NCBI GenBank assembly: GCA_963699495.1
Contig: CAVOUB010000004.1
Span: 4,865-68,864, forward strand
Direction: 5' to 3'
DNA from: an uncultured Actinomycetes bacterium
GTDB taxonomy: Bacteria > Actinomycetota > Thermoleophilia > Gaiellales > Gaiellaceae
Length of the DNA: 64,000 nt
The notes under the pieces are model-generated. The model was given only the letters and a program-made list of their open reading frames with translations. It searched no databases and was not told where the DNA came from. A program made the position numbers and the translations under genes. The number at the start of each line of letters is the position of its first letter. Position 1 is the stretch's first letter. Shown here in pieces: positions 33,344 to 34,568 of the stretch.

Positions 33344-33868
33344 TCAGGTCGCGACGACGACGGCGAACCCGATCACGTAGACCAGACCGAACAGCACGGG
33401 GATCCACTGCTCGAGATGGGTGAGCGGGAGATACTTCCGCCAGTCGGCGCCCTCGCCGAGCGCGATCCACTCCGCGCGCCAATAGGGTGAGGCCGGGAGA
33501 CGCTCTTCCAGCAAGCCGACCACCTTGAACTTGGCGGAGTTCAGCTGCCGGTACGACCGCACGAGCCACCACCAGGCCGTGCACTCGCCGAGCGCGATGA
33601 CGAGGGGGAGAGCGAGGATCCACGGCGTCACATCAGGGCGCTCCTTCCCCATGACGCCGATGACGGTGAAGATGGCCGTGTTGAGCGTGAGGAAGAAGGT
33701 GTTCGTGAGACCGCGCCGGTTGCTGACCCGGTCTGCCATCTCCACGTAGATCTTCCACTGCTCCATGACGGCGGCCTGATACTTCTCGCCACCGCCCTCG
33801 TAGTCCCGGGCGGTGACGTCGGCGTTCCAGAGTCGCTCGCGGATGCGCTGGAGCTCGTCGTCGGCCAC
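33344..33868 (-). CDS. three-TM membrane protein with a ~54-aa N-terminal soluble helix; candidate effector
   Basis: TM1 TNTFFLTLNTAIFTVIGVMG, TM2 WILALPLVIALGECTAWWWLV, amphipathic linker, TM3 WIPVLFGLVYVIGFAVVVAT. GTG start 7 nt after the upstream stop. Confidence 0.7.
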   Translation of the reverse strand: MADDELQRIRERLWNADVTARDYEGGGEKYQAAVMEQWKIYVEMADRVSNRRGLTNTFFLTLNTAIFTVIGVMGKERPDVTPWILALPLVIALGECTAWWWLVRSYRQLNSAKFKVVGLLEERLPASPYWRAEWIALGEGADWRKYLPLTHLEQWIPVLFGLVYVIGFAVVVAT

Positions 33869-33875
33869 GGTTCTC

Positions 33876-34568
33876 TCAGTTCTCGAACGGCACGTACTTC
33901 GGCCACTGGGGTGGGTCCGGCGGCCGCTCCGGCGCAGGCAGCTGCGGGATCCCGCGCGCGCCCGCAGGGGCCGGAGGGAACATGTCCGCGATGCCTTCGG
34001 CCCACGGGGAGGGGTCGTCGCGAATGTCCACGGTATTCGCGTCCGTCAGCGGCTTCGGGAGAGTCGATCCCGAGTACCAGACGCCGATCATGGTCAACCA
34101 TTCGGGGGACATCTTCACGGCGTGATTCCACTCGGCCATTGCCGCACCGGTGGCCTGCGGCGACGAGATCCGCTCCATGTACTCGTCCGAGATGATCGGC
34201 ACGAAGTAATTGCAGTCGTTCATGCGTACGAGCAGGCTGAACCAGTTGAGGCCCTTGCCGAAGTTGCGCGGATCCCGATCGAAGACGATGTCGTAACCGC
34301 GGCCGAACAGGAAGCCGGCGAAGGCGTCGACCCACAGATCCGAGTCGAAGGTCTCGTACGTCTCGTCCCGGGACCAGCCGTACGAGATGAAGAGCCGCGG
34401 GGAGTCAGGGGTCGGCGGACGAAGTCGCGGGTGGTCGAGGCCCGGGTCTCCGCTCGGGTCGAGGGCGAGCTTCTCCGGATCCCAGGCCATGAAGCCGGCC
34501 TGCTTGTTCACAGCCTCGACCCGTTGCAGGAGCTGCTGGATCACAGATGGGGTTTCGGGGTTGCTCAT
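33876..34568 (-). CDS. TIR-like domain protein
   Basis: RLFISYGWSRDETY...FLFGRGYDIVFDRD...NYFVPIISDEYMERI...AMAEW resembles the TIR/STIR beta-alpha pattern. ATG 34568 is chosen because the track ORF's extra N-terminus overlaps the tRNA gene. Confidence 0.6.
   Translation of the reverse strand: MSNPETPSVIQQLLQRVEAVNKQAGFMAWDPEKLALDPSGDPGLDHPRLRPPTPDSPRLFISYGWSRDETYETFDSDLWVDAFAGFLFGRGYDIVFDRDPRNFGKGLNWFSLLVRMNDCNYFVPIISDEYMERISSPQATGAAMAEWNHAVKMSPEWLTMIGVWYSGSTLPKPLTDANTVDIRDDPSPWAEGIADMFPPAPAGARGIPQLPAPERPPDPPQWPKYVPFEN

What the first reader, a model, noticed from the sequence alone, without database searches (positions are those of the whole stretch)
33344..34568. Translationally coupled TIR-like protein plus 3-TM protein: a sensor/effector-like pair next to the tRNA
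The TIR-like gene contains FISYGWSRDETY...GYDIVFDRD...FVPIISDEYMERI...AMAEW, flanked by about 55 aa at the N-terminus and a Pro-rich ~60 aa at the C-terminus. It ends 7 nt before the GTG start of a 174-aa protein.

That second protein has a ~54-aa soluble N-terminal helix, two closely spaced TM helices, an amphipathic linker (RSYRQLNSAKFKVVGLLEERLP) and a third TM at the extreme C-terminus.

This layout resembles small-molecule- or partner-activated membrane-disrupting effectors (2TM/SLATT-like, Thoeris/CBASS/Pycsar TM effectors). However, the TM protein has no recognisable ligand-binding domain.
Basis: partly seen in the sequence, partly recalled or inferred. Interest (0 to 1): 0.65.

Follow-up and report, generated by a model that had tools for sequence, protein, structure and literature searches.

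The report
TIR protein plus 8xMP membrane partner
Two tightly coupled genes next to a tRNA encode a divergent TIR-domain protein and a small three-helix membrane protein of the Pfam "8xMP" family; this pairing recurs from archaea to clostridia and looks like an untested, Thoeris-type anti-phage signalling module.

Summary
ORF A (33876-34568, minus) is a 230-aa protein. ORF B (33344-33868, minus) starts 7 nt after A's stop and encodes 174 aa. A tRNA-Leu(CAG) gene lies 60 nt upstream of A.

ORF A is a real but divergent TIR:
- Pfam TIR_2 scores 26 bits, just under the 28-bit cut-off.
- The AF2 model (pLDDT 85) matches solved TIR domains best.

ORF B is a clear member of Pfam PF24838, "8xMP, octameric membrane protein family" (E 4e-46). 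It has a cytoplasmic N-terminal helix, a 2-TM hairpin, a highly conserved cytoplasmic segment and a C-terminal TM.

The linkage holds on two scales:
- A-family TIRs sit beside 8xMP in 11 of 16 informative loci, in three different gene orders.
- In 8 of 12 inspected RefSeq plasmids (four bacterial phyla plus haloarchaea), an unrelated small TIR gene sits immediately upstream of the 8xMP gene.

A second TIR gene (32279-33325, plus) converges on B. It is also found with B where A is absent.

The most likely reading is a Thoeris-like system: TIR sensors make an NAD-derived signal that opens an oligomeric 8xMP membrane effector. A 2025 preprint lists an untested "TIR + 3TM" candidate that is probably this family. 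This locus is therefore a new variant of a known kind, of moderate interest.

The parts
34629..34713 (-). tRNA-Leu (anticodon CAG), 60 nt upstream of ORF A on the same strand. It is context only, not part of the system.
   Evidence: ARAGORN. No direct repeat of the tRNA 3' end was found in the window. No integrase was noticed among the ORFs listed for 30000-38000.
33876..34568 (-). ORF A: 230-aa divergent TIR-domain protein. It has a conserved N-terminal extension (residues 1-56) and a conserved Pro-rich C-terminal tail.
   Evidence: Pfam TIR_2 E 1.4e-5, 26 bits against a 28-bit cut-off. AF2 pLDDT 85. Foldseek top hits are TIR domains. 49 homologues conserved end to end.
34014..34400 (-). TIR core of ORF A (about residues 57-185). 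Motifs: RLFISYGWSRD (beta-A), YDIVFDRDPRN (beta-B) and MNDCNYFVPII (beta-C).
   Evidence: DSSP of the model shows alternating strands and helices: E58-62, H73-89, E93-95, H109-118, E121-126, H128-135, H142-153. hhalign aligns beta-A to beta-C with the neighbouring TIR and with a small ThsB-like TIR.
34131..34133 (-). GAG codon for Glu146 (motif AEW), the candidate catalytic glutamate of the TIR.
   Evidence: E146 and W147 are conserved in at least 90% of 22 family members. They lie in helix 142-153, after beta-C. Equivalence with the catalytic Glu of known TIRs is inferred from its position after beta-C, not shown by a residue-level structural alignment.
33879..34013 (-). Pro-rich C-terminal tail of ORF A (residues 186-230; consensus LPAPxRPPDPPxWPxYxPY).
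   Evidence: 14 Pro in 45 residues. Conserved across the family. Modelled with pLDDT 86-97, packed on the TIR domain.
33869..33875 (-). 7-nt spacer GAGAACC between A's stop codon and B's GTG start (tight coupling).
   Evidence: Read directly from the sequence. The same 5-12 nt spacing occurs in L083, L085, L086, L114 and L115.
33344..33868 (-). ORF B: 174-aa membrane protein of Pfam PF24838 (8xMP).
   Evidence: hmmscan E 3.9e-46, 156.7 bits against a 30-bit cut-off. 2102 homologues. 3191 representatives of 50%-identity clusters at E<=1e-3.
33560..33706 (-). TM1 - short loop - TM2 hairpin of ORF B (residues 55-103).
   Evidence: Uncharged stretches 55-73 and 83-103, lying inside helices 26-76 and 82-122 of the model.
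33407..33559 (-). Conserved cytoplasmic segment of ORF B (residues 104-154: RSYRQLNSAKF...EERLP...YWRAEW.ALG.G.D...YLPLTHLEQ). This is the proposed ligand-binding or gating region.
   Evidence: Holds most residues that are invariant across 40 diverse members: S105, Y106, R107, L109, N110, K113, E121, L124, E133, W134, L137, Y146, E153. The same motifs are visible in cyanobacterial, clostridial and archaeal homologues.
33347..33406 (-). C-terminal TM3 of ORF B (residues 155-174).
   Evidence: Kyte-Doolittle peak 2.45. Helix 149-173 in the model.
32279..33325 (+). ORF C: 348-aa protein with an N-terminal TIR_2 domain and a roughly 220-aa C-terminal region with no Pfam match. It converges on ORF B with an 18-nt gap. 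It is probably a second TIR partner of B.
   Evidence: TIR_2 E 2.8e-26 and ThsB_TIR E 5e-6. Homologues at 72-73% identity converge on 8xMP, 6 nt from its stop, in L116 and L117, where ORF A is absent.

Best explanation
A Thoeris-like abortive-infection module.

Proposed mechanism:
1. The TIR proteins act as infection sensors. These are ORF A, translationally coupled to B, and probably also the convergent ORF C.
2. On activation they use NAD+ to make an ADP-ribose-derived signal.
3. The 8xMP protein ORF B sits in the membrane as a ring-shaped homo-oligomer. Pfam's family name says octamer.
4. B binds the signal at its conserved, Arg/Lys/Tyr/Trp-rich cytoplasmic juxtamembrane face.
5. B then opens or disrupts the membrane, which stops growth before phage progeny are released.

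Shown here:
- A has a TIR fold.
- B is a member of 8xMP.
- B has a 3-TM layout.
- The TIR-8xMP gene pairing is conserved across phyla.

Inferred:
- Which partner senses and which acts as effector.
- NAD-derived signalling.
- The oligomeric pore.
- Anti-phage function.
For: Identity of the two proteins
- TIR fold of A. A Glu (E146) is conserved at the expected place.
- B matches PF24838 at E 4e-46.

Linkage within the ORF A family
- 8xMP is adjacent in the window and in L001, L002, L083, L085, L086, L114 and L115 (same order, 5-12 nt apart).
- It is also adjacent in L089 (divergent orientation), L093 (B first) and L096 (B about 1.1 kb upstream).
- B identity falls to 35-54% in these loci, so the link has survived rearrangement and divergence.
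- Flanking genes are not shared between loci, so the pair moves as a unit.

Linkage across phyla
- In 8 of 12 inspected plasmids, RefSeq annotates a TIR-domain gene immediately upstream of the 8xMP homologue, on the same strand, with a 1-45-nt overlap or a gap of at most 23 nt.
- These are Synechococcus, Paenarthrobacter, Clostridium perfringens, Halorubrum, Haladaptatus, Polaromonas, Haematospirillum and Novosphingobium.
- Neighbouring genes are often restriction-modification (RM), PIN, HEPN, caspase, toxin-antitoxin (TA) or transposase genes.

Other partners of 8xMP
- In 80 genome loci, 26 have a Pfam-recognisable or manually recognised TIR-class neighbour. These include TIR-TM-WD40 (14 loci), TIR-STING, TIR-caspase, TM-TIR and DUF4062.
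- Streptomyces loci add a SLOG-like protein.

Parallels with Thoeris
- One effector with one or two different TIR genes (A and C here; two TIRs in C. perfringens and Novosphingobium) mirrors Thoeris. A type III Thoeris locus lists four different TIRs for one effector (Table S1).
- The A-family TIR also occurs with other downstream genes: Peptidase_S41 in L084 and a YdjM-like protein in L081. This is effector swapping, as seen in Thoeris TIR clusters (paper section 5).
- Validated Thoeris types V and VII use small multi-TM effectors that are predicted to oligomerise, with positively charged inter-protomer pockets (10.64898/2025.12.03.692087).
- The Halorubrum TIR next to 8xMP is 80% identical to a TIR that the same paper pairs with a '3TM' putative effector.
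Against: - No experiment exists for any 8xMP protein that I could find.
- PADLOC and NCBIfam have no model for B.
- ORF A scores just below Pfam's TIR_2 cut-off. The catalytic role of E146 is inferred only.
- B has no recognised ligand-binding domain. Its monomer model is poor (pLDDT 63), so neither a pocket nor an oligomer could be checked.
- Many 8xMP partners are themselves membrane-anchored (TIR-TM-WD40, TM-TIR, the TM-'LRPF' proteins). This fits a physical complex as well as it fits diffusible signalling.
- Some A-family genes stand alone (L087, L092).
- The local neighbourhood is not a classical defence island: no RM or CRISPR genes, and no integrase was noticed.
Confidence: 0.55

Rival explanations
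1. Direct-complex model. 8xMP is a membrane scaffold or sensor, not a ligand-gated effector. It docks the TIR protein, for example through A's conserved Pro-rich tail. On a membrane or envelope cue it clusters the TIR domains. The TIRs then act as the effector by depleting NAD+.
For: - The 7-nt gap here, and overlapping stop/start codons elsewhere, suggest stoichiometric co-production.
- A's N- and C-terminal extensions are conserved, confidently modelled, and have no other assigned role.
- Many other 8xMP partners are membrane-anchored TIR proteins.
- TIR-STING, a known NADase effector, also sits beside 8xMP.
- TIR NADases generally need oligomerisation (established knowledge). An oligomeric membrane ring could provide that.
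Against: - The small TIRs upstream of 8xMP on plasmids belong to the same sequence cluster as the signal-producing ThsB proteins of Thoeris types IV, VII and VIII.
- 8xMP's most conserved residues are polar and charged and face the cytoplasm. That is what is expected of a ligand site rather than a docking surface for highly diverse TIR partners.
- One 8xMP gene is often flanked by two unrelated TIRs.
Confidence: 0.2
2. Addiction or toxin-antitoxin-like pair. 8xMP is a constitutively toxic small membrane protein, kept in check by the co-translated TIR protein (or the reverse). The pair stabilises mobile DNA rather than defending against phage.
For: - The pair is mobile and found on plasmids beside TA genes, recombinases and transposases.
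- Two small, tightly coupled genes, one of them a small hydrophobic protein, is a TA-like layout.
Against: - TIR domains are not known antitoxins.
- The partner of 8xMP varies enormously in size and architecture (137-aa TIR up to about 1000-aa TIR-WD40). That is atypical for a cognate antitoxin.
- 8xMP also occurs without any adjacent TIR.
Confidence: 0.08
3. Non-defence physiological role. 8xMP would be a membrane channel or stress protein regulated by TIR/SLOG-type nucleotide-binding proteins as part of normal signalling, for example developmental or envelope-stress signalling in actinomycetes.
For: - The family is common in multicellular actinomycetes and cyanobacteria.
- The window neighbourhood contains ordinary metabolic and membrane genes.
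- Members give weak similarity hits to Rv2743c and DUF3043 membrane families.
Against: - Patchy distribution, unrelated flanks between close relatives and plasmid carriage.
- Co-location with caspase, PIN, HEPN, RM, STING and SIR2 genes.
- Partner swapping. These are all hallmarks of conflict systems rather than housekeeping.
Confidence: 0.07

Closest known systems
'TIR + 3TM' putative Thoeris configuration (Yirmiya et al. 2025, bioRxiv 10.64898/2025.12.03.692087, Table S1; predicted, not tested)
   Same: A TIR gene sits next to a small three-TM protein. The TIR beside the Halorubrum 8xMP gene is 80% identical to a TIR listed there with a '3TM' effector. The Synechococcus and C. perfringens TIRs beside 8xMP are 46-53% identical to others in that class. 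Their 3TM effector is therefore very probably 8xMP.
   Different: ORF A is not one of those small ThsB-like TIRs. It belongs to a separate family with about 49 detected homologues and conserved N- and C-terminal extensions. Six short motif strings from ORF A, ORF C and the TIR-WD40 family were absent from the stored (truncated) table. No defence or signal data exist for this class.
Type V Thoeris (ThsB + ThsF/DUF2270; 3'cADPR-activated 3-TM effector)
   Same: A two-gene TIR + small 3-TM protein system. The effector is predicted to form a ring-like homo-oligomer with positively charged cytoplasmic pockets.
   Different: B gives no DUF2270 (PF10028) hit even at E<=10. It is a different family, and the signal molecule is unknown.
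Type VII Thoeris / CBASS SLATT effectors (ThsH; 2-TM SLATT domain)
   Same: A cytoplasmic helix plus a 2-TM hairpin plus a cytoplasmic helical region. Association with TIR and SLOG-type proteins. SLATT is predicted to be a nucleotide-responsive pore former (PMC7159879).
   Different: Only 3 of 40 8xMP members give weak SLATT_1 hits (best E 0.015), so membership is not supported. 8xMP also has an extra C-terminal TM.
Type II Thoeris (TIR + Macro-TM effector; His-ADPR)
   Same: A TIR-made signal activates a membrane-disrupting effector.
   Different: B has no Macro domain or any other recognised ligand-binding domain.

Membership tests
TIR domain (Pfam TIR_2 PF13676 / TIR fold) - ORF A | Sequence match to the family model above the curated cut-off | tested here: inconclusive
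   26 bits, E 1.4e-5, against a 28-bit cut-off. Eleven of the 49 family members carry a precomputed PF13676 hit.
TIR domain (Pfam TIR_2 PF13676 / TIR fold) - ORF A | Flavodoxin-like alpha/beta fold that superposes on solved TIR domains | tested here: met
   AF2 pLDDT 85, pTM 0.83. The top Foldseek PDB hits are TIR domains with probability 0.95-1.0: SPARTA, TRR-2 (TMt 0.67), SARM1, TIR-STING and MAL. E-values are modest, at or above 1.5e-3.
TIR domain (Pfam TIR_2 PF13676 / TIR fold) - ORF A | Conserved catalytic glutamate after beta-C, and NAD+ cleavage | tested here: inconclusive
   E146 is conserved in at least 90% of members and lies in the helix after beta-C. No residue-level structural alignment was available. 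Enzymatic activity cannot be tested here.
8xMP (Pfam PF24838) - ORF B | Match to the family model above the curated cut-off over nearly its whole length | tested here: met
   156.7 bits against 30; profile positions 1-134 of 136.
8xMP (Pfam PF24838) - ORF B | Octameric assembly (from the family name) | not testable with these tools
   No multimer prediction tool was available. The monomer model is poor (pLDDT 63). No solved homologue exists. The source of the Pfam name was not found.
Thoeris-type system | TIR-domain gene in an operon with a non-TIR effector gene, conserved across genomes | tested here: met
   11 of 16 informative A-family loci. 8 of 12 inspected plasmids.
Thoeris-type system | TIR produces an NAD-derived signal that activates the effector | not testable with these tools
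   Needs LC-MS and lysate-transfer experiments.
Thoeris-type system | Protection against phage | not testable with these tools
   No experimental data found. PADLOC has no model for B and only weak bSEFIR/ThsB-type hits for the TIRs.
SLATT (Pfam SLATT_1-5) | Significant match to a SLATT model | tested here: not met
   No hit for B at E<=10. 3 of 40 family members hit SLATT_1 weakly, best E 0.015.
DUF2270 / ThsF (type V Thoeris effector) | Match to PF10028 | tested here: not met
   PF10028 is not among the 25 families listed for the 40 members at E<=10, of 32 families found.

The most novel reading that the evidence does not exclude
8xMP would be a large, pan-prokaryotic family of signal-gated membrane effectors: more than 3000 clusters at 50% identity, in bacteria and archaea. 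It would serve as the common output for many different upstream modules: small ThsB-like TIRs, the ORF A-type TIR, TIR-TM-WD40, TIR-STING, SLOG-like proteins and an uncharacterised TM-anchored 'LRPF...WEL' domain. The divergent ORF A-type TIR, with its conserved extensions, would make a signalling molecule different from the known cADPR isomers and His-ADPR.
Probability: 0.25. Interest if true: 0.65.

Novelty: new variant of a known kind. Interest (0 to 1): 0.45.

Why it matters
If confirmed, 8xMP would become another validated Thoeris-type effector. It would be one of the few shared by actinomycetes, cyanobacteria, clostridia, proteobacteria and haloarchaea.

ORF A would define a new TIR sensor clade. 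Its product could extend the list of TIR-derived immune signals.

The pair is small, about 1.2 kb, so it is easy to clone and test. The partner catalogue gathered here (TIR-WD40, TIR-STING, SLOG-like, the 'LRPF' domain) offers a route to finding what 8xMP recognises.

The general concept of a TIR paired with a membrane effector is already established, and a preprint has already listed a probable equivalent as a candidate. The gain is therefore incremental rather than conceptual.

Tried and rejected
- tRNA-linked integrative island. No repeat of the tRNA-Leu 3' end was found in the window, and no integrase was noticed among the listed ORFs. GC is only slightly lower (0.63-0.70) than in the flanks. 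In L001 the pair follows a different tRNA (Ala), and other loci have none. The tRNA is context, not mechanism.
- SLATT or DUF2270 membership of B: not supported by HMMs.
- Solved homologue of B: none found by phmmer or by profile search.
- Structure of B: the monomer AF2 model is low-confidence (pLDDT 63, pTM 0.40). I did not run a fold search on it because the matches would be meaningless.
- Origin of the name '8xMP': four literature searches found nothing relevant. The 2015 NAR paper defining SLATT is not held.
- Whether the TM-anchored 'LRPF...WEL' domain next to many 8xMP genes is a TIR. hhalign against the A family was negative. A PDB profile search gave only spurious de novo TIM-barrel hits. 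Pfam gave nothing. It remains unclassified.
- Conservation of the window's flanking genes, or of ORFs D and E, with the pair in other loci: none found.
- Search for ORF A, ORF C and TIR-WD40 motifs in Table S1 of the Thoeris preprint: none found, but the stored table is truncated.
- The first neighbour scan used a crude home-made gene caller that over-extends starts in high-GC DNA. For that reason I based counts on HMM/tblastn hits and RefSeq annotation wherever possible.
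Full report
**Observation.** The window is high-GC DNA whose closest loci come from Actinomycetota-classified MAGs.
- tRNA-Leu(CAG) lies at 34629-34713 on the minus strand.
- Sixty nucleotides downstream, an ATG at 34568 opens a 230-codon ORF (ORF A). It ends with TGA at 33876-33878.
- The longer ORF listed from 34670 overlaps the tRNA, and no homologue supports it. All close homologues start at MSxPE.
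- After the 7-nt spacer GAGAACC, a GTG at 33868 opens the 174-codon ORF B, which ends at 33344.
- Consensus scans found no promoter or terminator between or around the two genes. This is uninformative for this type of organism.

**ORF A is a divergent TIR.**
- Pfam TIR_2 matches residues 60-193 at E 1.4e-5. The score is 26 bits against a 28-bit cut-off. Eleven of the 49 detected homologues carry a precomputed TIR_2 hit.
- An AF2 model built on 22 family members has mean pLDDT 85 and pTM 0.83. It shows the alternating strand/helix order of a flavodoxin-like domain.
- Its best Foldseek matches in the PDB are TIR domains almost exclusively: SPARTA TIR-APAZ, Hydra TRR-2 (TMt 0.67), SARM1, TIR-STING and the MAL filament. 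Probabilities are 0.95-1.0, although E-values are modest.
- hhalign places RLFISYGWSRD, YDIVFDRDPRN and MNDCNYFVP on strands A-C of the neighbouring bona fide TIR and of a small ThsB-like TIR.
- Glu146 (AEW; codon 34131-34133) is conserved in at least 90% of members and lies in the helix after strand C. That is where TIR NADases carry their catalytic Glu. This equivalence is inferred.
- The N-terminal 56 residues and the Pro-rich tail (LPAPxRPPDPPxWPxYxPY) are conserved family-wide. Most of this is confidently modelled as packed on the domain, apart from residues 1-30, which have mean pLDDT 46-59. Both regions are therefore integral parts of this TIR clade.

**ORF B is an 8xMP protein.**
- It matches Pfam PF24838, 'Octameric membrane protein family (8xMP)', at E 3.9e-46 over 134 of 136 profile positions.
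- PADLOC and NCBIfam have no model for it. No solved structure is related by sequence or by profile.
- Hydropathy, charge distribution and predicted helices indicate:
  - a cytoplasmic N-terminal helix (1-54);
  - a TM hairpin (55-73 and 83-103) with a 9-residue outer loop;
  - a 50-residue cytoplasmic segment;
  - a C-terminal TM (155-174).
- Across 40 diverse members, the invariant residues cluster just before TM1 (A45, D46, S49, R51, R52, N56, F58) and in the segment after TM2 (S105, Y106, R107, L109, N110, K113, E121, L124, E133, W134, L137, Y146, E153). This forms a polar, largely basic or aromatic cytoplasmic face.
- The same motifs can be read in cyanobacterial, clostridial and haloarchaeal homologues at 33-39% identity.
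- The family has 3191 representatives of 50%-identity clusters at E<=1e-3. Nearly all are stand-alone proteins of 160-200 aa.
- The monomer AF2 model is poor (pLDDT 63). This is expected if the protein is an obligate oligomer, but it prevented any structural test.

**Linkage from the A side.** The A family is small (49 hits). I examined 16 loci that hold an A homologue at 45% identity or more with enough flanking sequence.
- 8xMP follows A on the same strand at 5-12 nt in the window and in L001, L002, L083, L085, L086, L114 and L115.
- It is divergently oriented in L089/L090.
- It precedes A in L093.
- It lies about 1.1 kb upstream in L096.
- In these loci B is only 35-88% identical to the window's B. 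The association has therefore survived rearrangement and divergence.
- Flanking genes are unrelated between loci.
- Exceptions are informative:
  - In L084 the A homologue is followed 20 nt later by a Peptidase_S41 gene.
  - In L081/L082 it is followed by a YdjM-like membrane protein.
  - In L087 and L092 it stands alone, and in L091 it is disrupted.

**Linkage from the B side.** tblastn of B against PLSDB plasmids found homologues in Actinomycetota, Cyanobacteriota, Pseudomonadota, Bacillota and Halobacteria.
- In 8 of the 12 records I opened, RefSeq annotates a 'TIR domain-containing protein' of about 130-155 aa immediately upstream on the same strand. It either overlaps the 8xMP start codon or lies within 23 nt.
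- These are Synechococcus, Paenarthrobacter, C. perfringens, Halorubrum, Haladaptatus, Polaromonas, Haematospirillum and Novosphingobium.
- C. perfringens and Novosphingobium have two TIR genes around the 8xMP gene.
- Neighbours include caspase-family proteins, a type I restriction subunit, PIN, HEPN, TA genes, recombinases and transposases.

Among 80 genome loci fetched with the 8xMP profile, only two carry an A homologue. Other TIR-class neighbours are common:
- 14 loci (Nocardia/Rhodococcus) have an upstream protein of about 930 aa with the order TIR, TM segment, WD40.
- Others have TIR-STING, TIR-caspase, TM-TIR, DUF4062, a PCTIR/deoxyribosyltransferase-like NTPase or SIR2 next to 8xMP.
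- Streptomyces loci combine 8xMP with two other proteins. One is a 163-aa protein with weak DprA/YpsA/YAcAr (SLOG) similarity. The other is a TM-anchored protein carrying an unclassified 'LRPF...WEL' domain.

**The second TIR.** ORF C (32279-33325, plus strand; TIR_2 E 2.8e-26) converges on B with an 18-nt gap.
- Homologues at 72-73% identity converge on an 8xMP gene, 6 nt from its stop, in L116 and L117. ORF A is absent from both.
- Equal contig lengths suggest that further C-family proteins (P0174, P0178) lie on the same contigs as B-family hits, and that P0171 lies on the contig of an A-family hit. I did not verify these cases.
- More distant C homologues lack 8xMP.
- Closely related B genes thus occur with A alone, with C alone, or with both, as in the window.

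**Interpretation.** One small membrane protein is encoded with one or more variable TIR proteins. The module is mobile, patchily distributed and often sits beside other conflict genes. This is the architecture of Thoeris.
- In the recent survey of TIR signalling systems, several validated types use small multi-TM effectors. [quoted passage not shown]
  - Type V: DUF2270, three TM helices, 3'cADPR.
  - Type VII: SLATT, cADPR.
  - Type X: an ion channel.
- The same TIR cluster is found with different effectors (10.64898/2025.12.03.692087).
- Table S1 of that paper lists an untested '3TM' putative effector class. The Halorubrum TIR immediately upstream of 8xMP is 80% identical over 128 residues to one of those TIRs. 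The Synechococcus and C. perfringens TIRs are 46-53% identical to others.
- I therefore infer that '3TM' is 8xMP. I could not check this directly.
- I consider the Thoeris-like signalling model the best explanation (0.55). The main rival is a direct TIR-8xMP membrane complex in which the TIR is the NADase effector (0.20). That rival is favoured by the tight coupling, by A's conserved tail and by the membrane anchoring of many other partners.
- TA-like and non-defence roles are less likely.

**Comparison and novelty.**
- B is not a detectable member of SLATT or DUF2270. It resembles them in size, topology and partners.
- ORF A belongs to none of the small ThsB-like clusters listed in the part of the table I could read, and six motif strings from ORF A, ORF C and the TIR-WD40 family were not found there.
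- The locus is best described as a new variant of a known kind. It is a Thoeris-like pair with an 8xMP effector, which is catalogued as a candidate but never tested, and an undescribed TIR clade. Here it is doubled by a second, convergent TIR.
- Interest is moderate. The concept is established and a preprint has probably flagged the effector class. However, the family is large, pan-prokaryotic and experimentally untouched.

Noticed in passing
window 30628-32242 (+): Two tightly spaced genes lie upstream of TIR gene C. One encodes a 312-aa protein with an N-terminal HTH_3 domain and a roughly 220-aa region with no family match. The other encodes a 221-aa thymidylate-synthase-like protein (PF00303 E 3.5e-11; archaeal-type TIGR03283 E 2.6e-23, far below its cut-off). 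Neither is conserved with A, B or C in any fetched locus. They may be a separate nucleotide-modifying or defence-like pair. L114 similarly has a CAP12-PCTIR TIR gene plus a thymidylate-kinase-like gene near its A-B pair.
   Followed up: partly
L024, L028, L030, L034-L036, L038, L039, L042, L049, L060, L069 (about 1300-5000); fragments in L027 and L064: In Nocardia and Rhodococcus the 8xMP gene is directly preceded by a protein of about 850-1060 aa with the order TIR, one TM segment, many WD40 repeats. This is a conserved pair that I did not find described.
   Followed up: partly
L051, L059, L063, L066, L070, L073, L074, L076, L077, L080 (around 3500-6500): Streptomyces and Kitasatospora loci combine three genes. 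The first encodes a TM-anchored protein with an unclassified cytoplasmic domain: invariant L-x-L-R, D, E, G-A, W and E within a W-E motif, consensus 'VLYLRxFxDD ... GAARxYLP..WQ ... WEL'. The second is 8xMP. The third encodes a 163-aa protein with weak SLOG (DprA/YpsA/YAcAr) similarity. A related 476-aa TM protein follows 8xMP in seven Nocardia loci.
   Followed up: partly
L004, L005 (about 5500-6600, minus); L050 (+1 gene); remnant in L003: CAP12-PCTIR TIR + prokaryotic STING proteins are encoded beside 8xMP in MAGs labelled Alphaproteobacteria. They converge on it, 3-25 nt from its stop. No CD-NTase was evident in the immediately adjacent genes I inspected.
   Followed up: no
protein P0138 (metagenome contig, 7417 nt): A 251-aa product joins residues about 1-182 of an ORF A homologue in frame to the C-terminal third of an 8xMP homologue (...LTEANSV|RSYRQLNTAKF...). 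It is either a deletion fusing the two genes or an assembly artefact. P0167 and the L091 locus look like frameshifted A genes.
   Followed up: no
L001 3936-4009; window 34629-34713: The A-B pair follows a tRNA gene in two unrelated contexts: tRNA-Ala(TGC) in L001 and tRNA-Leu(CAG) in the window. No tRNA is present in the other ten loci scanned.
   Followed up: partly
L083 5278-5565: A 95-aa DUF7701 (PF24792) gene overlaps the stop codon of the 8xMP gene in one A-B locus. The window has no equivalent, because ORF C converges there instead.
   Followed up: no
L122 (Clostridium perfringens plasmid NZ_CP065633.1, record 13437-15750): The gene order is caspase-family protein, TIR, 8xMP, TIR, on a cpb2 toxin plasmid. 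Paenarthrobacter plasmid pYJN5-2 has a TIR + caspase pair about 2 kb from its TIR + 8xMP pair. This suggests that caspase-type and 8xMP-type outputs can share TIR inputs.
   Followed up: no
window 33315-34742, several frames: Long ORFs overlap A and B on both strands: 33813-34742 (+) 309 aa, 33628-34335 (-) 235 aa and 33315-33623 (-) 102 aa. They are Arg/Pro/Gly-rich, as expected of non-coding frames in high-GC DNA, and were not searched separately for homologues. I did not treat them as genes.
   Followed up: partly
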